Assembly (NCBI GenBank): GCA_965205945.1
Contig: CBDBIB010000002.1
Location: 128,001-192,000 of the forward strand
Direction: 5' to 3'
Origin: Bdellovibrionales bacterium
GTDB lineage: Bacteria; Bdellovibrionota; Bdellovibrionia; Bdellovibrionales; UBA1609
Length of the DNA: 64,000 bases
The position numbers and the translations under genes are program-made. Below the pieces are notes generated by a model. That model was not told the DNA's origin. It worked only from the letters and a program-made list of their open reading frames with translations, and did not search any database. Positions 48,016-59,704 of this stretch are shown one piece after another; the stretch's first letter is position 1; every line of letters starts with the position of its first letter.

Positions 48016-48569
48016 TGTGCTTTTATAAAACATGCCGATAAGGAGGATTATGTTACTACGTCTATTTACGTCTATTTTAAAATTATATTTAAGTTTAAAA
48101 GTATTTAATTATAAAAGTTTAGACTTTATTTTTTTAAAATTATTATTTTCAATAAAATTTTTATCATTAAAAATAAGGACTGCTTTAGAATTTACTTTAA
48201 AAATATTTAATATTTAGCGCTCTTTTTTTAAAGCTTAGATTTAAATATCTTTATTTATCATAGCTGTTATTTTAACCAACATCTAAGTTTAAAAGTTATT
48301 AAGATACAGCATATGTATTATATAAAATTAAATAAATATTTAAAGCGATATTCTTTAAGGTTTTTTTTTAATATTTATTTGTATAGAGCTATTATTTAAA
48401 TAAGAAAATCTTGTTAATTAAACGTAACTATTTTGCAACATTTTTATGTCACAAAGAAATTTACACTTAAGCACCATAGTTAAAATCAGCAGGTCAAATC
48501 AAAAATAATGTGGTTTTAAGCAGAAATAGTAACATAATCCTCCTTATCGGCATATTTTGTAAAAGCACA
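48016..48569. repeat. 554-bp segment bounded by 43-bp inverted repeats (invertible element or MITE)
   Basis: 48016-48058 TGTGCTTTTATAAAACATGCCGATAAGGAGGATTATGTTACTA versus reverse complement of 48527-48569 TGTGCTTTTACAAAATATGCCGATAAGGAGGATTATGTTACTA: 41 of 43 identical. Confidence 0.9.
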
Positions 48570-48625: not shown

Positions 48626-48652
48626 CTAATTGTTAAGCTTTTCATCCGAAAT
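48626..48652 (+). promoter_or_regulatory. Possible sigma28 (FliA)-type promoter of the fibre gene
   Basis: CTAA-N15-TCCGAAAT versus consensus TAAA-N15-GCCGATAA; would place the true start at ATG 48660 or GTG 48704. Confidence 0.35.
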
Positions 48653-51600
48653 ATACAATATGTATAGAGTATATGACTTATTAAAAAATTTCATAGAAAT
48701 AGGTGTGAAAGCTCTAACTTTCTTCACAATTTTACTATTAACTCCCCATTCTCTAGCCACCCCAAGTTCTTTTGTTTTTCAAGGTCAAATTGTAAAACCC
48801 AATGGAGACGCTTTAGAAGAAAATAATGTCAGCTTTCTTGTTCAAGTTTTATCCTCCATGGATCATTGTCTTCTTTACGAAGAAAGTTTTAATCTTAATA
48901 TGATAGGATCAAAGGGAGTTTTTAACTTAAACGTTGGGTCTGGAATAAACACAGGAAATGGAGGCTTAACAAATTTATCTAAAGCTTTAGACAATTCTTT
49001 TTTAAACAATAAAAGTCTTAGTTGTGCCTTTGGGTCTTCATACACTCCAACCTTAAACGATACAAGAAGGCTTAGAGTAACTTTTGATCATGGCAGCGGC
49101 CCTCTTACTTTAACAAATGATCATATAATTCACAGTGTGCCCTATGCTCAGTATGCCGGCAAACTTGGTGGAAAAGCTGTTAATGATTTTATTCAAGTAA
49201 GTCGTGGTGTTACTCAAAGCAATTTAGAGACCGTGTTTGATAATGATGCCAATCAAAGGGAGCTTATGGCTTTAATTAATGGCAGCTCTAATCAATACTC
49301 CCCATTAAGCATCAGTGGAGCTAGCTCTTTACCGAGTTTTTCAAGCTCTCATCCACCACCTAATTCTCAGGCAGGAGATATTTGGTATAACTCTACAAAT
49401 AATCAAATCATGTACTACAATGGATCAGCAGCCACTGTTGTTGGTAAAGGTAGTGGAACTGTAACCAGTATTACAGCAGGAAGTGGCTTAAGTGGTGGAA
49501 CCATTACAAACAGTGGTACAATTTTAATTGCACCAGGGGGTGTTTTAAACAGTCATCTTGCAAGTGGTATTCATGCAAATAAAATCACAAGTGGAATTCT
49601 ACCAAGCTCAGTGGTTCCCACAGGAACTGACAATACAAAACTTCCTCTTACAGGAGGGGTTTTATTAGGTGACCTTAACTTTAATAATAATCAGATTCTA
49701 AACACAAGTCATATTATGCAAAACCCAGGAAGTACCATGACCTTAGGTTCTTATACGAATTTAGAAGAAGTTAGTCTTTTAGGGTCTATGAACATGAGCA
49801 ATGCTGGGGCTACTTGGTACAATAGTGACTCTGGAGCGCTTAAGTATTGGAATGGTGTTAGCTTAGAAGTTTTAAGCACCTTAAGTAGTGCATCAAGTGT
49901 TTTAGTCAATGCTCCTTTAACTTCTTCAGGTGGTAGCAACCCAACAATAAGCATCAACCTTGGTAGGGGTTTATACAACAACAGTGGAAACATAGATTTA
50001 GATTTAGATTCTTCTGGGGGTTTAGAGTTTAATATAAATAAATTAAAAGTAAAAGTAGGAAGTGGTTTAAAAATTACGCCAAGGGGTTTAGAAGCAGATA
50101 TAGGAAGTGGTTTAGGACAGCTCATGCAAGTGGACACTCTTCCTGTGTGTACTAGTGGGGAAAAGATTCAACGAAACCCTGGTGCTATAATAAGCTATTC
50201 TTGCGTGGCTGATATTGATACGGACACAGACACAAGTCTTTTAGGAAGCCAGGCTCAAGGGGATCTTACAGGAACCTACCCAAACCCTAGTCTTACACCA
50301 ACGGGTGTAACCCAAGGGGCGTACCCAAAAGTTAGAGTTGATGTTAAAGGAAGAGTGGTTGAGGGTTTAAGTTTATTAAAATCTGATATACCAGATTTAA
50401 ATGGAGAAAAGATCACTTCAGGAATCATTAGCACAGCTAGATTAGATGTTGGCACAGGGAGCAATCAGCTTATTAAGCTTGATAGCTCTTTAAGACTGCC
50501 TGCTGTTGATGGAAGTCGGCTTATAAACTTACCAAGTAGTGCTGATAATATGGGAGATGGTATAGCTCGATTAAATATAAATCTTAACCAAAATTATTTA
50601 AGTGGAGACGGTGATAATGAGGGAATTATTATTGATGCTAGTGGAAGGGTTGGGGTTGGTAAGGCTAGTCCTGAGGCTTTATTAGACGTTGCTGGAACAG
50701 CAAGAATAACACAAATTTGTGATGAAAGAGGAGCAAATTGTAAGGATGTGTCTGAAGGTTGGAGTTTAGCAAGTCTGGCGGCAAACACGGTGACCTACAC
50801 TCCATTTGGAAACATTCAGGCTACAGATGTAGAAGGTGCACTTAATGAACTTGAATCTAGAAAAGCTCCAATAACTAGAACTATTAGAACGGCTTTAAAC
50901 AGTGGATTAAGTGGAGGCGGAGATTTATCAACTGATAGAAGTTTAAGTGTAGACATTAACAAAACTACAGAAAAAACTACGGCTGATTCTTTAGACAGTG
51001 TTTTAATGTATGATGTTTCTCAAAGTGGTCTTAAAAAAATAACACATTCAAACTTTTTAAACGGTTATTTAAAAGCTTCTTTAGGCACAAGTCGAGGCAA
51101 CGCAATGGATGCTGGTGGGGTGCCTAGTTGTGAAGCCAATGAAAAACTTCAAATGAGTGAAGGTCCTATTTATTTATGGTCATGTGTGACAGACACAAGT
51201 CTTTTAGGAAGCCAGGCTCAAGGGGATCTTACAGGAACCTACCCAAACCCTAGTCTTACACCAACGGGTGTAACCCAAGGGGCGTACCCAAAAGTTAGAG
51301 TTGATGTTAAAGGAAGAGTGGTTGAGGGTTTAAGTTTATTAAAATCTGATATACCAGATTTAAATGGAGAAAAGATCACTTCAGGAACCATTAGCACAGC
51401 TAGATTAGATGTTGGCACAGGGAGCAATCAGCTTATTAAGCTTGATAGCTCTTTAAGACTGCCTGCTGTTGATGGAAGTCGGCTTATAAACTTACCAAGC
51501 AGTGCTGATAATATGGGAGATAGTATAGCTCGATTAAATATAAGTCTTAATCAAAATTATTTAAGTGGAGACGGTGATAATGAGGGAATTATTATTGATG

Positions 51601-54600
51601 CTAGTGGAAGGGTTGGGGTTGGTAAGGCTAGTCCTGAGGCTTTATTAGACGTTGCTGGAACAGCAAGAATAACACAAATTTGTGATGAAAGAGGAGCAAA
51701 TTGTAAGAATGTGTCTGAAGGTTGGAGTTTAGCAAGTCTGGCGGCAAACACAGTGACCTACACTCCATTTGGAAACATTCAGGCTACAGATGTAGAAGGT
51801 GCACTTAATGAACTTGAATCTAGAAAAGCTCCAATAACTAGAACTATTACAACGGCTTTAAACAGTGGATTAAGTGGAGGTGGAGATTTATCGACTGATA
51901 GAAGTTTAAGTGTAGACATTAACAAAACTACAGAAAAAACTACGGCTGATTCTTTAGACAGTGTTTTAATATATGATGTTTCTCAAAGTGGTCTTAAAAA
52001 AATAACACATTCAAACTTTTTAAACGGTTATTTAAAAGCCTCTTTAGGAAAAAGTCGAGGCAACGCAATGGATGCTGGTGGAGTGCCTAGTTGTGAAAGC
52101 AATGAAAAACTTCAAATGAGTGAAGGTCCTATTTATTCCTGGTCATGTGAAGTTGATCAAAACACAAGTCTTTTAGGAAGCCAGGCTCAAGGGGATCTTA
52201 CAGGAACCTACCCAAACCCTAGTCTTACACCAACGGGTGTAACCCCAGGGACGTACCCAAAAGTTAGAGTTGATGTTAAAGGAAGAGTGGTTGAGGGTTT
52301 AAGTTTATTAAAATCTGATATACCAGATTTAAATGGAGAAAAGATCACTTCAGGAACCATTAGCACAGCTAGATTAGATGTTGGCACAGGGAGTAATCAG
52401 CTTGTTAAGCTTGATAGCTCTTTAAGACTGCCTGCTGTTGATGGAAGTCGGCTTATAAACTTACCAAGCAGTGCTGATAATATGGGAGATAGTATAGCTC
52501 GATTAAATATAAATCTTAACCAAAATTATTTAAGTGGAGACGGTGATAATGAGGGAATTATTATTGATGCTAGTGGAAGGGTTGGAGTTGGTAAGGCTAG
52601 TCCTGAGGCTTTATTAGACGTTGCTGGAACAGCAAGAATAACACAAATTTGTGATGAAAGAGGAGCAAATTGTAAGGATGTGTCTGAAGGTTGGAGTTTA
52701 GCAAGTCTAGCGGCAAACACGGTGACCTACACTCCATTTGGAAACATTCAGGCTACAGATGTAGAAGGTGCACTTAATGAACTTGAATCTAGAAAAGCTC
52801 CAATAACTAGAACTATTAGAACGGCTTTAAACAGTGGATTAAGTGGAGGTGGAGATTTATCAACTAATAGAAGTTTAAGTGTAGACATTAACGGAACTAC
52901 AGAAAAAACTACGGCTGATTCTTTAGACAGTGTTTTAATGTATGATGTTTCTCAAAGTGGTCTTAAAAAAATAACACATTCAAACTTTTTAAACGGTTAT
53001 TTAAAAGCCTCTTTAGGAAAAAATGCAGGCAACGCAATGGATGCTGGTGGGGTGCCTAGTTGTGAAAGCAATGAAAAACTTCAAATGAGTAATGGCCCTA
53101 TTTATTTATGGTCATGTGTGACAGACACAAGTCTTTTAGGAAGCCAGGCTCAAGGGGATCTTACAGGAACCTACCCGAACCCTAGTCTTATACCAACGGG
53201 TGTAACCCAAGGGACGTACCCAAAAGTTAGAGTTGATGTTAAAGGAAGAGTGGTTGAGGGTTTAAGTTTATTAAAATCTGATATACCAGATTTAAATGGA
53301 GAAAAGATCACTTCAGGAACCATTAGCACAGCTAGATTAGATGTTGGCACAGGGAGCAATCAGCTTATTAAGCTTGATAGCTCTTTAAGACTGCCTGCTG
53401 TTGATGGAAGTCGGCTTATAAACTTACCAAGCAGTGCTGATAATATGGGAGATGGCAGGGCTCGATTAAATATAAATCTTAACCAAAATTATTTAAGTGG
53501 AGACGGCGATGATGAAGGAATCACTATTAACAATAATGGTGATGTTTCTGTCTCTGGAAGCATTTCTACTCCAGGATCTATTAGTACATCTACTGTTACA
53601 TTTTTAAAAAAAGTTGGAACAGTTACAACCCCTTGTGACAGTTTAACTGAGGGTACTTTAAGGTATAATTCTTTAGGAAAAAAACTGGAGTTTTGCGATG
53701 GGGTAGTGTGGAAAACTTTTTTAAGTAACAATGATCCAACAATTTCTATTACAAACTCTTTAAGTGGATCTTACATTAATTCTATTAATGAGGGAGGTTT
53801 TAGGGTTTTAGGAACATGTTCTGAAAATGGTGAGCTTATCACATTCTCACATGGTACAAGCTTTATTACTTGTTCTAATAAAAGCTTTAGTGGTGATATT
53901 GATTTTTCAAGCCTAAGTGATGGTCCACTTTCACTAACTGCTAGTATCACAAACATTGCTGGAAATTCTAAAACTTCAGGTGTTTTAAATCTAATAAAAG
54001 ATACTAAACCCCCTATTGTCAGTATTGGAAGCCATATAATAAGCAGTTCAAATTCTATAGACTTTCCCATAACTGTAAGCCAAGACTTTAGTAGTATAAA
54101 CCTAGAAAAGAGCAATGTCAGCCTTACTGGAGCTACTACAGGTTGCACAGTTTTAGTAACAAATGGAACAACTATTAATCCAAGTATTAGGATTTCAGAC
54201 TGCAGTGATGAAACCGGAAATATTCAAATTACAATCGCCTCTGGTGTTGCACAAGATGCAGCCGGAAACCTGTCTGATGTAGTTAGTTTAAGCACTGAAA
54301 TACAAAATTTAGGAACCCCTTTTACAGCTAAATTTAGAATTTATGGTAGTGATTTGAATTTAAATCTTAGGTTAAATTCTTCTTATACATATAACTTTAT
54401 GGTTAATTGGGGGGATGGAACCTCGGGAGTTGTTACTTCATCAAGTGATTTAGATAAAAATCATACTTATTCATCTTCAGGGACTTATATAGTTAAAATC
54501 ACTGGGCGCTGCCCATATCTTAACTTTCGTGATAGCGAGCAAATAATTGAGGTTACAGAATTAGGAGACACAGGGTGGGAAAGTTTTAGTTATATGTTTT

Positions 54601-55565
54601 ATAAAGCAGATAACTTAACTCTTGTTAATGGTGGCTCAACTAGACATGTTACTAGTATGAACTCTATGTTTTCTTATGCAGCTTTAGCTAACCCTGACAC
54701 CTCTAACTGGGACACTTCTAAGGTTACTAGTATGGGCTATATGTTTTCTTATGCAGCTTTAGCTAACCCTGACACCTCTAACTGGGACACTTCTAAGGTT
54801 ACTAATATGAGCTGGATGTTTTATGATGCAGCTTTAGCTAACCCTGACACCTCTGACTGGGACACTTCTAAGGTTACTGATATGGGCTTGATGTTTTATG
54901 ATGCAGCTTTAGCTAACCCTGACACCTCTAACTGGGACACTTCTAAGGTTACTGCTATGAACTCTATGTTTTATAATGCAGATTTAGCTAACCCTGACAC
55001 CTCTGACTGGGACACTTCTAAGGTTACTGATATGGGCTTTATGTTTTCTTATGCAGCTTTAGCTAACCCTGACACCTCTAACTGGGACACTTCTAAGGTT
55101 ACTAATATGGGCTTGATGTTTTATAATGCAGATTTAGCTAACCCTGACACCTCTGACTGGGACACTTCTAAGGTTACTAATATGTATCAGATGTTTTATA
55201 ATGCAGCTTTAGCTAACCCTGACACCTCTAACTGGGACACTTCTAAGGTTACTAATATGGGCTTGATGTTTTATAATGCAGATTTAGCTAACCCTGACAC
55301 CTCTGACTGGGACACTTCTAAGGTTACTCGTATGGGCTATATGTTTTATAATGCAGATTTAGCTAACCCTGACACCTCTGACTGGGACACTTCTAAGGTT
55401 ACTGATATGGAGAGTATGTTTAATAATGCAGCTTCTTTTGATCAAGACATCAGTTCATGGAATGTTTCTAACGTTGTCTATTGCGAGAGTTTTTCAAGCC
55501 GAACTTTAACTTCTTGGACTCGTGCTGAAAAACCTAATTTTACACGTTGTAGCCCTGGTTATTAA
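48630..55565 (+). CDS. Giant fibre/adhesin (Bdellovibrio MAT/tail-fibre-like N-terminus and shaft, Ig/PKD-like domains, BspA/DUF285 repeat tip)
   Basis: Signal-like segment then FVFQGQIVKPNG..LE...VSF...CLLYEE...GVF.L.VG. Shaft motifs GDLTGTYPNP, YPKVRVDVKGRV, GRVGVG..SP..LLDVAG, GLSGGGDLS.DR. PKD-like VNWGDG..HTYSSSGTY. Tip of 25-aa WDTSKVT.M..MF repeats. Confidence 0.85.
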   Translation: MLSFSSEIYNMYRVYDLLKNFIEIGVKALTFFTILLLTPHSLATPSSFVFQGQIVKPNGDALEENNVSFLVQVLSSMDHCLLYEESFNLNMIGSKGVFNLNVGSGINTGNGGLTNLSKALDNSFLNNKSLSCAFGSSYTPTLNDTRRLRVTFDHGSGPLTLTNDHIIHSVPYAQYAGKLGGKAVNDFIQVSRGVTQSNLETVFDNDANQRELMALINGSSNQYSPLSISGASSLPSFSSSHPPPNSQAGDIWYNSTNNQIMYYNGSAATVVGKGSGTVTSITAGSGLSGGTITNSGTILIAPGGVLNSHLASGIHANKITSGILPSSVVPTGTDNTKLPLTGGVLLGDLNFNNNQILNTSHIMQNPGSTMTLGSYTNLEEVSLLGSMNMSNAGATWYNSDSGALKYWNGVSLEVLSTLSSASSVLVNAPLTSSGGSNPTISINLGRGLYNNSGNIDLDLDSSGGLEFNINKLKVKVGSGLKITPRGLEADIGSGLGQLMQVDTLPVCTSGEKIQRNPGAIISYSCVADIDTDTDTSLLGSQAQGDLTGTYPNPSLTPTGVTQGAYPKVRVDVKGRVVEGLSLLKSDIPDLNGEKITSGIISTARLDVGTGSNQLIKLDSSLRLPAVDGSRLINLPSSADNMGDGIARLNINLNQNYLSGDGDNEGIIIDASGRVGVGKASPEALLDVAGTARITQICDERGANCKDVSEGWSLASLAANTVTYTPFGNIQATDVEGALNELESRKAPITRTIRTALNSGLSGGGDLSTDRSLSVDINKTTEKTTADSLDSVLMYDVSQSGLKKITHSNFLNGYLKASLGTSRGNAMDAGGVPSCEANEKLQMSEGPIYLWSCVTDTSLLGSQAQGDLTGTYPNPSLTPTGVTQGAYPKVRVDVKGRVVEGLSLLKSDIPDLNGEKITSGTISTARLDVGTGSNQLIKLDSSLRLPAVDGSRLINLPSSADNMGDSIARLNISLNQNYLSGDGDNEGIIIDASGRVGVGKASPEALLDVAGTARITQICDERGANCKNVSEGWSLASLAANTVTYTPFGNIQATDVEGALNELESRKAPITRTITTALNSGLSGGGDLSTDRSLSVDINKTTEKTTADSLDSVLIYDVSQSGLKKITHSNFLNGYLKASLGKSRGNAMDAGGVPSCESNEKLQMSEGPIYSWSCEVDQNTSLLGSQAQGDLTGTYPNPSLTPTGVTPGTYPKVRVDVKGRVVEGLSLLKSDIPDLNGEKITSGTISTARLDVGTGSNQLVKLDSSLRLPAVDGSRLINLPSSADNMGDSIARLNINLNQNYLSGDGDNEGIIIDASGRVGVGKASPEALLDVAGTARITQICDERGANCKDVSEGWSLASLAANTVTYTPFGNIQATDVEGALNELESRKAPITRTIRTALNSGLSGGGDLSTNRSLSVDINGTTEKTTADSLDSVLMYDVSQSGLKKITHSNFLNGYLKASLGKNAGNAMDAGGVPSCESNEKLQMSNGPIYLWSCVTDTSLLGSQAQGDLTGTYPNPSLIPTGVTQGTYPKVRVDVKGRVVEGLSLLKSDIPDLNGEKITSGTISTARLDVGTGSNQLIKLDSSLRLPAVDGSRLINLPSSADNMGDGRARLNINLNQNYLSGDGDDEGITINNNGDVSVSGSISTPGSISTSTVTFLKKVGTVTTPCDSLTEGTLRYNSLGKKLEFCDGVVWKTFLSNNDPTISITNSLSGSYINSINEGGFRVLGTCSENGELITFSHGTSFITCSNKSFSGDIDFSSLSDGPLSLTASITNIAGNSKTSGVLNLIKDTKPPIVSIGSHIISSSNSIDFPITVSQDFSSINLEKSNVSLTGATTGCTVLVTNGTTINPSIRISDCSDETGNIQITIASGVAQDAAGNLSDVVSLSTEIQNLGTPFTAKFRIYGSDLNLNLRLNSSYTYNFMVNWGDGTSGVVTSSSDLDKNHTYSSSGTYIVKITGRCPYLNFRDSEQIIEVTELGDTGWESFSYMFYKADNLTLVNGGSTRHVTSMNSMFSYAALANPDTSNWDTSKVTSMGYMFSYAALANPDTSNWDTSKVTNMSWMFYDAALANPDTSDWDTSKVTDMGLMFYDAALANPDTSNWDTSKVTAMNSMFYNADLANPDTSDWDTSKVTDMGFMFSYAALANPDTSNWDTSKVTNMGLMFYNADLANPDTSDWDTSKVTNMYQMFYNAALANPDTSNWDTSKVTNMGLMFYNADLANPDTSDWDTSKVTRMGYMFYNADLANPDTSDWDTSKVTDMESMFNNAASFDQDISSWNVSNVVYCESFSSRTLTSWTRAEKPNFTRCSPGY
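50232..53519 (+). repeat. Large intragenic tandem repeat, 3 full units plus ~0.4 unit (963, 969 and 963 bp)
   Basis: ACAAGTCTTTTAGGAAGCCAGGCTC starts at 50232, 51195, 52164 and 53127; units are nearly identical. Confidence 0.95.
54648..55433 (+). repeat. 75-bp tandem repeat, 10 full units plus a partial 11th (BspA/DUF285-type 25-aa repeat)
   Basis: GTTACT starts at 54648, 54723, 54798 ... 55398; units 7 and 9 are identical. Confidence 0.97.
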
Positions 55566-58723: not shown

Positions 58724-59704
58724 ATGGCTACTAAAAAGAAAATAAAAAAGAAAAAAACTATTGTAAAGAAGAAAGTAGCTAGAAAGAAAGCTGGAGTAAA
58801 AGCAGTAATTAAGAAGAAAACAACAAAAAAAGCTAGTTTAAAAAAGAAGGCGACAAAAAAAAAGGTTGTTAGAAAAAAGGCTACTGCAAAAAAGAAAGTT
58901 GCTAGAAAAACCTTTGTGAAAAAAAAGGCTACTGCAAAAAAGAAAGTTGCTAGAAAAACCTTTGTGAAAAAAAAGGCTACTGCAAAAAAGAAAGTTGCTA
59001 GAAAAACCTTTGTGAAAAAAAAGGCTGCTGCAAAAAAGAAAGTTGCTAAAAAAGCTGTTCCTAAGAAAAAAAAAATAATTAAAAAAGTAGTACCAAAAAA
59101 AGTTAAAAGTAGGAAAAAGGTTGTAACTAAGAAAGTTATTACAAAGAAAAAAGTAACTAAAATAGTTAAAGAGCCTAAAAGTACTTTGGCTAAATCAGAC
59201 TTTAAGTTAGTAAAAAAGGCCGGTTTAAAGGTTGATGAAGCTTTAAGATCTAAAATTTTAAAAAAAGTTGGAAAAATTGTTAAGTCTTTTAAAACTTTAG
59301 AAGAAGCAAAGGCTATAACACAAGAAAAAATTACAGAGGCCTTGGCTAATATAGCAAGTGCTAAAAGTACAGGAACAGTGTCTATTACAGATGCAGAGGG
59401 TCGTATTTTATGTAGATCTGTTAATTGCGATCAAGTTTCAGTAGTTGAAGGGTATTGTCGATACCATTACTTATTGTATTGGAAGAAAATTCAGCTTAGA
59501 AGAAAAATTCTTTCAGAAGGGAAATTAGAAAAATACGTTCAAGAGCTTACAGCAAGATACCCAGATAAATACTTAGATATTTTATTAAAAGATTTAGCTT
59601 CAGAGAAAAGCTTTCAACAGACTTGTCATGAATTAGGTATTGGTGGTAGTGAGAATGAAATGGATCCTGATGATGAGAATAATGACAATGATCCTGATTT
59701 TTAG
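58724..59704 (+). CDS. Histone H1-like Lys/Ala-rich protein with C-terminal CCCH-type domain and acidic tail
   Basis: About 150 aa of K/A/V/T-rich repeats, then C..VNC...GYCRYH and a D/E/N-rich tail. Confidence 0.75.
58873..59047 (+). repeat. 48-bp tandem repeat (~3.5 units) encoding [16 protein letters not shown]
   Basis: GCT(A/G)CTGCAAAAAAGAAAGTTGCT at 58880, 58928, 58976 and 59024. Confidence 0.9.

What the first reader, a model, noticed from the sequence alone, without database searches (positions are those of the whole stretch)
54648..55433. Hypervariable repeat tip: fixed DNA scaffold with only non-synonymous changes at 7 codons
Seen: across the ten full 75-bp units, 18 of 25 codons are nucleotide-identical and I found no synonymous difference. 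Including the partial 11th unit, codon 3 encodes S/N/D/A/R, codon 5 N/G/S/Y/E, codon 6 S/Y/W/L/F/Q, codon 9 S/Y/N, codon 10 Y/D/N, codon 12 A/D and codon 20 N/D. Units look like mosaics of each other, and units 7 and 9 are identical. Known: in LRR-like solenoids, consensus residues form the scaffold and variable residues form the binding face. Inference: this is a VLR/antibody-like surface diversified by repeat shuffling or gene conversion plus selection, sitting at the end of a fibre. It could tune prey or host recognition.
Basis: partly seen in the sequence, partly recalled or inferred. Interest (0 to 1): 0.85.

Follow-up and report, generated by a model that had tools for sequence, protein, structure and literature searches.

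The report
Hypervariable repeat tips on predator fibres
The repeat array is the leucine-rich-repeat-like tip of a giant surface fibre of a Bdellovibrio-like bacterium, and nine genes in this small genome carry the same letter-identical repeat framework with amino-acid changes packed into a few codons, which looks like an evolved repertoire of binding surfaces rather than chance.

Summary
There are ten 75-bp units, with 12 variable bases in 7 of 25 codons, no synonymous difference, and units 7 and 9 identical. Random substitution does not reproduce the clustering (0 of 20,000 simulations).

The array is the PARCEL/DUF285 tip of a 2311-aa fibre with the Bdellovibrio MAT N-terminal domain. It models as an LRR solenoid (pLDDT 95; Z 22.5 to 4fs7).

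The pattern is genome-wide. Nine genes hold 119 units on one scaffold, with 3 singleton synonymous steps against 32 nonsynonymous-path steps. pN at the 7 codons is 0.33, scaffold pS is 0.004 and shaft pS is 0.017. Whole units are copied between genes and sub-unit combinations are shuffled. A sister species shows the same hot codons on its own scaffold.

No reverse transcriptase or template copy was found.

Best reading: concerted evolution plus diversifying selection, giving a germ-line repertoire of binding tips. Somatic shuffling is untested, because only short contigs of reads were available.

New in passing: a 554-bp inverted-repeat element 61 nt upstream of the MAT genes lies flipped in place between paralogues.

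This scan has noted similar DUF285 arrays in phages and giant viruses.

The parts
48016..48569 (.). 554-bp element bounded by 43-53-nt inverted repeats (arms 48016-48068 and 48517-48569, inner 448 bp), ending 61 nt before the fibre ORF. It is a candidate invertible switch.
   Evidence: One search shows arms 89% complementary. Searches show full copies at the same 61-nt distance upstream of 8 MAT genes (a ninth is partial), with the inner segment in either orientation while both flanks stay collinear. Searches show a diverged homologue in sister genome G003, also in both orientations.
48630..55565 (+). Fibre gene. The open frame is 2311 aa. The likely start is the ATG at 48660 (MYRVYDLL...), followed by a hydrophobic leader.
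48729..49202 (+). MAT (mosaic adhesive trimer) N-terminal domain, aa 34-191.
   Evidence: NCBIfam NF053851 scores 145.5 bits against a cut-off of 60. Nine such domains in the genome all score 149.8 bits.
50226..53528 (+). Shaft made of about 3.4 copies of a 963-bp (321-aa) repeat, with copies about 97% identical to one another.
   Evidence: blastn self-hits. The motif SLLGSQAQGD recurs at aa 536, 857, 1180 and 1501.
54351..54503 (+). Small beta-sandwich (PKD-like) module just before the repeat tip.
   Evidence: Pfam PKD scores 17.8 bits, below its cut-off of 23.5. The AlphaFold model shows beta strands at model residues 8-87.
54546..54647 (+). Diverged first repeat (N-terminal cap of the solenoid), IEVTELGDTGWESFSYMFYKADNLTLVNGGSTRH.
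54648..55397 (+). Ten 75-bp PARCEL/DUF285 units on an identical DNA scaffold. Hypervariable codons are 3, 5, 6, 9, 10, 12 and 20.
   Evidence: Pfam PF03382 gives E 6.4e-83 and TIGR02167 scores 131.8 bits.
55398..55565 (+). Eleventh, diverged unit plus the C-terminal cap ending ...CSPGY and the stop codon. Among the nine genes pN exceeds pS here as well.
   Evidence: The cap has pN 0.081 against pS 0.024 over 36 gene pairs.

Best explanation
The array encodes the ligand-binding tip of a very long surface fibre. The tip is a solenoid of 25-residue PARCEL/DUF285 (BspA-type leucine-rich-like) repeats.

In this 1.87-Mb genome the same tip module ends nine genes. Six are full-length MAT-type fibres, one more fibre gene is cut by a contig end, and two are lipoproteins.

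Frequent duplication, unequal crossing-over and gene conversion of units, within arrays and between the nine genes, keep the framework codons letter-identical. This is concerted evolution. Selection for amino-acid diversity acts on about 7-10 hydrophilic codons per unit, so each unit and each gene presents a different combination.

The result is a germ-line repertoire of related but distinct binding surfaces. In logic it resembles TAL-effector repeats or plant immune-receptor LRRs. It most likely serves recognition of prey (or other cell) surfaces.

Shown: the fold class, the fibre context, the multigene family, the excess and clustering of replacement changes, the copying and shuffling of units, and the recurrence in a sister species.

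Inferred: that the variable residues contact a ligand, that the ligand is on prey, and that selection rather than a site-specific mutator makes the diversity.
For: Identity of the gene:
- PF03382 E 6.4e-83, TIGR02167 131.8 bits, Bdello_MAT_N 145.5 bits.
- AlphaFold pLDDT 95.0, pTM 0.91.
- LRR folds score Z 22.5 (4fs7), 22.2 (RPP1 LRR) and 17.5 (internalin).

Family:
- Nine ORFs hold 31, 16, 12, 5, 10, 6, 14, 11 and 14 units, 119 in all.
- There are 119 exact copies of the 21-nt scaffold core, and none lies outside these ORFs.
- The shafts of the other five full-length paralogues are 98.5-99.1% identical to ours over 6 kb.

Selection:
- In the 119 units, 13 of 25 codons never vary.
- The minimum count is 3 synonymous steps, all singletons, against 32 steps in replacement paths.
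- Scaffold pS is 0.0037 and pN is 0. pN at the hot 7 codons is 0.33. Shaft pS is 0.017 and pN 0.007.
- The third base of hot codons 3, 10, 12 and 20 is invariant in 119 of 119 units. By the genetic code, a T/C change there would be silent in every allele.

Copying:
- There are 62 identical unit pairs, 38 of them between genes, against 3.1 +/- 1.9 under free assortment (maximum 12 in 500 shuffles).
- Multi-unit blocks are shared. Our gene and C3:582625-589863 begin with the same two units.

Shuffling:
- 79 distinct units arise from only 35 mutational steps, which requires at least 43 recombination or recurrent-mutation events.
- Association between hot codons falls with distance. Cramer's V is 0.57 for codons 5-6 and 0.11 for 12-20.

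Replication in sister genome G003:
- 34 units in 5 loci vary at codons 3, 5, 6, 9, 10, 11 and 12. They sit on a scaffold that differs from ours at codons 13, 14 and 25.
- Ser at codons 3 and 10 is AGT here but TCT there, which points to independent origins.

Other points:
- Hot residues are 84% S, N, D, Y or G.
- The hot positions coincide with the family-wide variable positions in an 84-sequence alignment and with the description of variable hydrophilic positions in PMC2996958 (section 6, read).
Against: - No binding, expression or localisation data exist for this protein.
- Whether the hot residues lie on one face could not be computed, because no coordinates are returned.
- The absence of synonymous change in our ten units alone is only P = 0.019. 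For the 119 units, P(3 or fewer synonymous of 35) = 0.065. The case therefore rests on clustering and on diversity ratios.
- Variation largely confined to the first two codon bases (NNT, NNC) is also what an adenine-directed mutator would give.
- The order of units in each array depends on an assembly I could not verify. The public runs are kept as short contigs that break inside the array.
Confidence: 0.7

Rival explanations
1. Programmed, high-frequency (within-population) cassette shuffling. Units would be exchanged among the nine loci often enough that a culture is a mixture of tip variants, as in pilin or VlsE antigenic variation or lamprey VLR assembly. This might be coupled to on/off switching by the upstream invertible element.
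For: - Perfectly identical 21-57-nt scaffold stretches between hot codons give ample homology.
- There are 38 identical unit pairs between genes, and multi-unit blocks are shared.
- At least 43 recombination or recurrent-mutation events fall within a 75-bp unit.
- The 554-bp element upstream of the MAT genes is found flipped in place between paralogues and in the sister species.
Against: - There is no read-level evidence. The three holding runs are from one study and are kept as short contigs. Pieces inside the array are 53-75 nt and cannot be assigned to one of nine paralogues.
- All nine genes are complete, and there are no silent cassettes outside them.
- No recombinase gene is adjacent. 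Five tyrosine and one serine recombinase matches lie elsewhere in the genome.
Confidence: 0.15
2. Relaxed constraint only. The hot positions would simply be free to vary, the scaffold would be constrained, and silent changes would be missing because the expansion is very recent.
For: - The family consensus also shows these positions as unconserved.
- P(0 synonymous) for the ten units is only 0.019.
- PMC2996958 leaves the 'neutral accrual' reading open (section 6).
Against: - Under neutrality, replacement diversity cannot exceed silent diversity. Here pN at the hot codons is 0.33, against pS 0.0037 in the scaffold and 0.017 in the shaft.
- Silent third bases one nucleotide away from hypervariable bases never vary in 119 units.
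- The three silent variants are singletons, while replacement alleles are at intermediate frequency and shared by several genes.
Confidence: 0.06
3. Targeted hypermutation by a diversity-generating retroelement or another site-specific mutator.
For: - Codons 3 and 10 vary as NNT. Codon 5 varies mostly as NNC, with AGG, AGA and TAT as exceptions.
- Codons 12 and 20 vary at a position that is A in one allele. This mimics AAY-codon mutagenesis.
Against: - There is no RVT_1 match in the genome, which is 97.3% complete. The control search rings in 3 of 14 genomes.
- No template-like copy of the scaffold lies outside the nine ORFs, even allowing 3 mismatches.
- Many scaffold adenines never vary, and several variable bases are not A in any common allele (codon 6 all three bases, codon 2 C/T, codon 25 G/T).
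- Only 2-10 alleles occur per codon, each shared by many units, and whole units recur.
Confidence: 0.04
4. Assembly or polishing artefact in a repeat that is hard to assemble.
For: - There are nine near-identical 6-kb genes with 75-bp repeats.
- Only 54-67% of the sampled 31-mers of the 1.8-kb stretch are held by the three runs.
Against: - Inside the array, all 19 'other letter' rows (17 places) from the three runs fall on the variable bases defined from the assembly. None falls on the scaffold.
- Arrays have no frame breaks in any of nine genes.
- The same pattern is seen in an independent genome.
Confidence: 0.03

Closest known systems
PARCEL / DUF285 / TIGR02167 repeats ('BspA family leucine-rich repeat surface protein'; Roske et al. 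2010, PMC2996958)
   Same: - 25-residue tandem repeat with conserved hydrophobic positions and variable hydrophilic ones.
- Placed on surface proteins, including lipoproteins.
- Matches both HMMs far above their cut-offs.
- The paper proposes intragenomic shuffling and reservoirs of variants (abstract and passages; section 6).
   Different: - Here the framework is base-identical over 119 units in nine genes, and replacement changes exceed silent ones about 90-fold at the hot codons. The paper left selection versus neutral accrual open.
- Its main text does not contain 'Bdellovibrio', 'hypervariable' or 'synonymous'.
- The dyad symmetry that gives PARCELs their name is not evident here. DNA folding of two units gives z = +1.26, and 180 of 200 shuffles fold at least as well.
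MAT (mosaic adhesive trimer) fibres of Bdellovibrio bacteriovorus HD100 (Caulton et al. 2024, PMC10769870)
   Same: - Conserved N-terminal domain (NF053851), a long fibre shaft, and many paralogues with a constant base and swapped C-terminal tips.
- A proposed role in prey recognition (Discussion read).
   Different: - The tips described there are S74, beta-sandwich, TNF-like and C-type lectin. The main text has 0 occurrences of DUF285, PARCEL or leucine-rich. Its Supplementary Tables 3 and 4, which list further tip domains, could not be opened.
- Here the paralogues are about 99% identical and differ almost only inside one tip type.
- Trimerisation was not tested.
TAL effector repeats of Xanthomonas (recalled, not from a call)
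   Same: - Tandem repeats nearly identical at the DNA level, with variation confined to a few codons per repeat.
- Several paralogues per genome.
- Evolution by repeat recombination.
- Each repeat contributes a variable contact.
   Different: - A different fold (helical), ligand (DNA) and delivery route (type III secretion).
- Two variable residues per 34-aa repeat there, against 7-10 per 25-aa repeat here.
- This is an analogy of logic only, not membership.
Lamprey variable lymphocyte receptors, and plant NLR / receptor LRRs under diversifying selection (recalled; LRR folds of RPP1 and of a TLR5-VLR complex appear among structural matches)
   Same: LRR solenoid with a conserved framework and hypervariable solvent-exposed positions. 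Position 3, the beta-ladder residue, and positions 5 and 6 would correspond to the x positions of LxxLxL.
   Different: - VLRs are assembled somatically from flanking cassettes into an incomplete gene. Here the genes are complete and no cassettes exist outside them.
- Plant LRR genes are not homogenised at the DNA level in this way.
Invertible promoter elements (fimS of E. coli, Bacteroides invertons; recalled)
   Same: The upstream 554-bp element has terminal inverted repeats and occurs in both orientations at exactly the same site, directly upstream of surface-protein genes.
   Different: - No adjacent recombinase.
- No clear outward promoter. There are 11 promoter-like sites against 7.0 +/- 2.8 expected in AT-rich DNA.
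- Both orientations are seen between paralogues and species, not yet within one locus of a population.

Membership tests
PARCEL / DUF285 (PF03382, TIGR02167) | Match to the family HMMs above the curated cut-off | tested here: met
   PF03382 scores 274.8 bits (cut-off 25) and TIGR02167 scores 131.8 bits (cut-off 30) with 8 stretches.
PARCEL / DUF285 (PF03382, TIGR02167) | Tandem 25-residue (75-nt) units with periodic conserved hydrophobic residues and variable hydrophilic residues between them | tested here: met
   Period 75 with 0 indels. V1, M4, M7, F8, A14 and W21 are invariant, and hot positions are 84% S/N/D/Y/G. The same x positions appear in the 84-sequence consensus.
PARCEL / DUF285 (PF03382, TIGR02167) | Dyad symmetry (palindromic motifs) in the coding DNA | tested here: inconclusive
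   Single-strand DNA folding of two units gives -7.1 kcal/mol, z = +1.26, and 180 of 200 shuffles fold at least as well. The paper used a motif finder, not folding, so this is not the same test.
MAT fibre family (Caulton et al. 2024; NCBIfam NF053851) | Conserved N-terminal MAT domain | tested here: met
   145.5 bits against a cut-off of 60, at aa 34-191. The family matched 0 of 14 control genomes and 17 of 41 relatives including this genome.
MAT fibre family (Caulton et al. 2024; NCBIfam NF053851) | Several paralogues sharing the N-terminal end and shaft but differing at the C-terminal tip | tested here: met
   There are nine MAT_N genes. Six of them are full-length with PARCEL tips of 5-31 units, and three (1704, 1880 and 1266 aa frames) have no PARCEL match. 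Shafts are 98.5-99.1% identical.
MAT fibre family (Caulton et al. 2024; NCBIfam NF053851) | Trimeric fibre displayed on the cell surface | not tested
   No complex prediction or experiment was done. Only the monomeric tip (421 aa) was modelled.
Leucine-rich-repeat solenoid fold | Structural similarity to solved LRR proteins over most of the domain | tested here: met
   VIA-align gives 4fs7 Z 22.5 (323 aligned, rmsd 4.7), 7crb_A Z 22.2 and 4fmz_B Z 17.5. Foldseek hits are all LRRs but weak, with TM 0.14-0.37. There is no PDB match by sequence at E <= 0.01.
Diversity-generating retroelement target | Reverse transcriptase and a template repeat in the genome | tested here: not met
   There are 0 RVT_1 matches in a genome that is 97.3% complete. 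There are 0 copies of the scaffold core outside the nine ORFs, even with up to 3 substitutions allowed.
VLR-type somatic assembly | Incomplete germ-line gene flanked by donor cassettes | tested here: not met
   All nine genes are uninterrupted frames running from a signal or anchor end to the C-terminal cap. There are no cassettes outside them.
Invertible (phase-variation) DNA switch | Segment bounded by inverted repeats and found in both orientations at the same site | tested here: met
   Arms are 43-53 nt. The inner 448 bp is 97-99% identical but reversed at 5 of 8 full copies, with both flanks collinear; for g1 the flanks are 100% identical. The G003 homologue has 45-nt arms and two loci in opposite orientation. 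Both orientations were seen between paralogues, not within one locus.
Invertible (phase-variation) DNA switch | Both orientations co-existing at one locus in a population; a dedicated recombinase; an outward promoter | tested here: inconclusive
   The read tool was already used and gave contigs only. Recombinase genes exist but none is adjacent. The promoter scan is not above background.

The most novel reading that the evidence does not exclude
The nine near-identical fibre and lipoprotein genes would form a bacterial recognition repertoire that is actively re-dealt. Units would move between loci by homologous exchange on the frozen scaffold, at rates high enough to make every culture a mixture of tip specificities. 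Each MAT fibre gene would also be switched on or off by its own invertible element. A predator with a 1.9-Mb genome would then track the surface diversity of its prey with a combinatorial, phase-variable system. That would be a prokaryotic counterpart of VLR-type receptor diversification, built from PARCEL repeats, and the same logic seems to recur on phage and giant-virus fibres.
Probability: 0.2. Interest if true: 0.85.

Novelty: new variant of a known kind. Interest (0 to 1): 0.66.

Why it matters
How Bdellovibrio-like predators tell prey apart is still largely open. The MAT fibres were proposed in 2024 as the recognition system, with different folds as tips.

Here one organism has taken a single tip type and diversified it at a handful of residues across nine genes. 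This supplies a natural, ready-made mutant series. The shafts are the same, the tips have 5 to 31 units, and the variable positions are known. Specificity could therefore be mapped residue by residue, much as the TAL code was read.

It also gives the clearest evidence so far that the variable positions of PARCEL/DUF285 repeats are under diversifying selection rather than drifting. That question was left open when this very large family of unknown function was described.

The invertible element in front of the fibre genes, if it is a switch, would be phase variation of predation adhesins. I found no report of that: only 2 papers hold both 'Bdellovibrio' and 'invertible promoter', and the one I opened mentions only an invertase gene.

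Tried and rejected
Reads. Three runs from one study (two samples) hold 54-67% of the sampled words. They are kept as Logan contigs, and inside the array the pieces are only 53-75 nt. With nine paralogous arrays they cannot show unit number, unit order or within-population variants.
- One allele seen in the contigs (codon 25 AAC, place 54947) is not in any of the 119 assembled units. I did not resolve this.

Collection scans.
- Exact 30-nt scaffold scans found 0 matches in metagenome contigs and 0 in viral contigs.
- Protein-guided scans found only distant DUF285 relatives: 22 loci at 30-44% identity in genome contigs, and 80 kept of 86 at up to 54% identity in metagenome contigs. No strain-level comparison was possible.

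Structure.
- The model has no downloadable coordinates (one search lists the files), so I could not measure whether the hot residues share one face.
- A sequence search of the PDB found nothing at E <= 0.01.

Scaffold conservation between species. The consensus scaffolds of G000 and G003 differ at 1 of 10.2 silent sites, against pS 0.34 in the flanks. By my own binomial estimate this is only about P = 0.1, so I make no claim of selection on the DNA itself.

Dyad symmetry was not evident.

DGR was rejected.

Literature.
- 'DUF285' with 'predatory' returned 0 papers.
- Two broader searches returned nothing relevant.

How common homogenised arrays are. Among 102 unrelated DUF285 loci, 8 have at least 85% identity at the repeat lag over 450 nt, and the median is 0.69. 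Those 8 vary at codons 3 and 9 in all eight, and mostly at 5, 6, 10 and 12. They show more scattered and more silent change, with silent:replacement allele counts of 5:35, 8:24, 3:9, 8:30, 3:21, 33:41, 12:24 and 15:24. The phenomenon is therefore a family trait, and this genome is an extreme case.

I re-ran it in faster form.
Full report
**1. The observation**

Tandem Repeats Finder reports one array at window 54648-55434: period 75, 10.5 copies, 91% matches, no indels. It lies in frame at the 3' end of a 2311-codon frame, 48630..55565 on the + strand.

I cut the array into units. Ten full units cover 54648-55397.
- Across them, 12 of 75 bases vary, all in codons 3, 5, 6, 9, 10, 12 and 20.
- 18 of 25 codons are base-identical.
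- Every distinct codon stands for a distinct residue.
- Units 7 and 9 are identical.

I then tested against chance with 18 random non-stop substitutions on the consensus, 20,000 times.
- Zero synonymous changes has P = 0.019.
- 12 or fewer sites has P = 0.003.
- 7 or fewer codons never occurred.

The clustering is the strong signal. The missing silent changes alone are a modest one.

**2. What the gene is**

Pfam gives DUF285 (PF03382, E 6.4e-83). NCBIfam gives the PARCEL repeat (TIGR02167, 131.8 bits) and, at residues 34-191, Bdello_MAT_N, described as 'mosaic adhesive trimer family chimeric fiber protein' (145.5 bits, cut-off 60).

Between the two ends lie several parts:
- a shaft with about 3.4 copies of a 963-bp repeat;
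- a small beta module, a PKD-like match below the cut-off;
- a diverged first repeat;
- the ten units;
- a diverged eleventh unit;
- a cap ending CSPGY.

I modelled the last 421 residues with an 84-sequence alignment. The model has pLDDT 95.0 and pTM 0.91.
- There is no PDB relative by sequence.
- By fold, the model matches LRR solenoids: 4fs7 (a BspA-like LRR protein) at Z 22.5, the RPP1 LRR at Z 22.2, and internalins at Z 16-17.5. Foldseek gives LRRs only, and weakly.
- In the model, the only beta-ladder residue of each repeat is position 3, one of the hot codons (mapped).

**3. The pattern is genome-wide**

The genome is 1.87 Mb in 5 contigs, 97% complete. It has nine MAT_N domains, all scoring 149.8 bits. 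It also has nine long frames with DUF285 arrays. These frames fall into three groups:
- Six are full-length fibres with 2006-2008-aa shafts that are 98.5-99.1% identical to ours.
- One is a fibre gene cut by a contig end.
- Two are lipoproteins (MSKVIQCLFIIGLVGC...) carrying the same tip.

The nine frames hold 31, 16, 12, 5, 10, 6, 14, 11 and 14 units, 119 in all, on the same scaffold VTxMxxMFxxAxLANPDTSxWDTSK.
- A 21-nt scaffold core occurs exactly 119 times and never outside these frames.
- In the 119 units, 13 of 25 codons never change a base. 20 bases in 12 codons vary.
- The minimum mutational path has 3 synonymous steps, each a singleton, and 32 steps in replacement paths.

Diversity figures are as follows:

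| Region | pS | pN |
|---|---|---|
| 15 scaffold codons | 0.0037 | 0 |
| 7 hot codons | not meaningful (see below) | 0.33 |
| Shaft, 15 pairs of the six full-length paralogues | 0.017 | 0.007 |

The Nei-Gojobori pS of about 0.09-0.1 at the hot codons comes from averaging multi-step codon paths, not from silent alleles.

The third bases of hot codons 3, 10, 12 and 20 are invariant in all 119 units. By the genetic code, a T/C change there would be silent in every allele present. Silent sites one base away from hypervariable sites therefore do not vary. This rules out a regional mutation hot spot, and it rules out simple relaxed constraint in a recent expansion.

**4. Copying and shuffling**

There are 79 distinct units among the 119, and 16 unit types occur in two or more genes.
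- Identical unit pairs number 62, of which 38 are between genes. Independent shuffling of the variable codons gives 3.1 +/- 1.9, with a maximum of 12 in 500 shuffles. Whole units are therefore copied within and between genes.
- Runs of two or three identical units are shared by four gene pairs. Our gene and C3:582625-589863 begin with the same two units.
- At the same time, 79 haplotypes from 35 mutational steps need at least 43 recombination or recurrent-mutation events inside a 75-bp unit (haplotype bound).
- Association between hot codons decays with distance. Cramer's V is 0.57 for codons 5-6, 0.43-0.51 for 6-9, 6-10 and 9-10, and 0.11 for 12-20. That decay is what recombination predicts. 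Structural coupling of neighbouring residues could contribute as well.

**5. Replication in a sister species**

Of 41 genomes searched (40 relatives plus this one), 10 have a match to the tip.

In G003, which is in the same genus, five loci hold 34 units.
- The G003 scaffold differs from ours at codons 13 (TTA to GCA), 14 (GCT to GCA) and 25.
- Variation is at codons 3, 5, 6, 9, 10, 11 and 12, plus one change in codon 7 and variation at codon 25.
- Serine at codons 3 and 10 is AGT here and TCT there. The same residue was therefore reached independently.
- Flanking codons differ at pS 0.34 between the two genomes.

More distant relatives (G002, G004, G016, G038) have ordinary, non-homogenised DUF285 repeats.

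In G003 the arrays are not next to any of its 15 MAT_N domains (coordinates). At least one G003 array is on a lipoprotein. Grafting of this tip onto MAT fibres was therefore seen only in the present genome among those searched.

**6. Mutator hypotheses**

The NNT and NNC look of codons 3, 5 and 10 recalls DGR mutagenesis, but four findings argue against it:
- No reverse transcriptase was found.
- There is no template-like copy of the scaffold.
- Many scaffold adenines are invariant, and several variable bases are not A.
- Only 2-10 alleles occur per codon, each shared by many units.

**7. Population variation**

Three runs of one study hold the stretch, but only as short contigs. Laid on the window, the pieces inside the array are 53-75 nt long.
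- All 19 'other letter' rows (17 places) inside the array fall on bases that vary among the 119 assembled units. None falls on the scaffold (one search compared).
- This supports the codon pattern.
- Scans of metagenome and viral collections found no copy of the scaffold and no close relative.

**8. How special is it within the family?**

The family is huge: 6616 proteins reached E <= 1e-10 among 7997 candidates scored.

Among 102 unrelated DUF285 loci from genomes and metagenomes, 8 have arrays as homogenised as ours, with at least 85% identity at the repeat lag against 0.92 for ours. Those 8 vary at codons 3 and 9 in all eight, and mostly at 5, 6, 10 and 12, but with more scatter and more silent change.

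Earlier notes of this scan report similar arrays on phage and giant-virus fibres. I did not check those loci. The mode of evolution therefore looks like a property of PARCEL repeats in general, and this genome is a very clean, multi-gene example.

Roske et al. 2010 described the conserved and variable positions. They left open whether the variation is selected or neutral (section 6, read).

Caulton et al. 2024 described MAT fibres with other tip folds. Their main text has no mention of DUF285, PARCEL or leucine-rich repeats (Discussion read). Their supplementary tables could not be opened.

**9. A second finding: the upstream element**

A 554-bp element with 43-53-nt terminal inverted repeats ends 61 nt upstream of our frame.
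- Full copies lie at the same distance from eight MAT genes, and a ninth copy is partial.
- The inner 448 bp is 97-99% identical at seven of the eight full copies; the copy before C3:99974 is diverged at 84%.
- It points one way at three full copies: ours, C2:54840-61928, and the diverged copy before C3:99974.
- It points the other way at five.
- Both flanks remain collinear. At C1:59486-67999 the flanks are 100% identical while the inside is reversed.

G003 has a 67-68% identical homologue with 45-nt arms, again in opposite orientations at two loci. The segment has therefore flipped in place repeatedly.

Whether it is a regulated switch is open.
- The promoter scan is at background.
- Recombinase genes exist but are not adjacent.
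- I had no reads left to test one locus.

The nine-locus comparison argues against that reading.

**10. Verdict**

The most likely mechanism is concerted evolution of a repeat scaffold combined with diversifying selection on exposed residues. This gives a germ-line repertoire of fibre tips (confidence 0.7). A programmed, population-level shuffling and switching system is possible and would be much more remarkable (about 0.2).

The system is a new variant of known kinds: PARCEL repeats, MAT fibres, and LRR receptors under diversifying selection. It is not a new category.

Noticed in passing
window 48016-48569 (and G000 C2:61989-62540, C2:116498-117039, C1:68060-68611, C1:521565-522105, C1:651687-652228, C3:589924-590465, C3:99315-99913, partial C1:289256-289432): A 554-bp element with 43-53-nt inverted-repeat ends sits exactly 61 nt upstream of the MAT fibre genes. 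Its inner 448 bp is reversed at five of eight full copies while both flanks stay collinear. A 67-68% identical homologue in sister genome G003 also occurs in both orientations. This makes it a candidate phase-variation switch. It contradicts an earlier single-locus reading of the element as an orphan MITE-like relic.
   Followed up: partly
G000 C1:268208-270967(+) and C3:400210-401997(+): Two lipoprotein genes (signal MSKVIQCLFIIGLVGC) carry the same PKD-like module and hypervariable PARCEL tip (16 and 11 units) as the fibres, but on a short, different N-terminal part. They have no upstream invertible element. A homologous lipoprotein form exists in G003 (L031).
   Followed up: partly
G000 loci upstream of C3:582625-589863 and of the MAT gene at C1:652289: On the far side of the invertible element there is a 90-134-nt inverted copy of the spacer plus the first codons of the fibre gene. 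The inverted repeat is therefore longer at these two loci.
   Followed up: no
window 54947 (codon 25 of unit 4) in runs X1, X2: Contigs of the public runs carry AAC at codon 25 (depth 263 of 355 in X1). This allele is absent from all 119 assembled units of this genome, which have AAG or AAT, but it is the common allele in sister genome G003. It could be a strain difference or a second organism in the sample. I did not resolve it.
   Followed up: no
window 58724-59704 (+), repeats at 58820-59087: A 326-aa frame has an extremely lysine-rich N-terminal half built from 48/96-bp tandem repeats ([16 protein letters not shown]...), followed by a Cys-containing C-terminal domain. It looks like a histone-H1-like or nucleoid protein.
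   Followed up: no
window 54648-55397: The array is 40.7% G+C in a window of 31.9%. Its scaffold uses C-ending codons (AAC, GAC, ACC) that are unusual for so AT-rich a genome. This is compatible with foreign origin of the cassette, as proposed for PARCELs, or with codon selection. I did not test it.
   Followed up: no
G003 (sister genome), 15 MAT_N matches: The sister species has 15 MAT N-terminal domains with almost identical scores (160-162.8 bits) on frames of 217-1264 aa. None of them is next to its PARCEL arrays. The two species therefore mount the same hypervariable tip on different carriers.
   Followed up: partly
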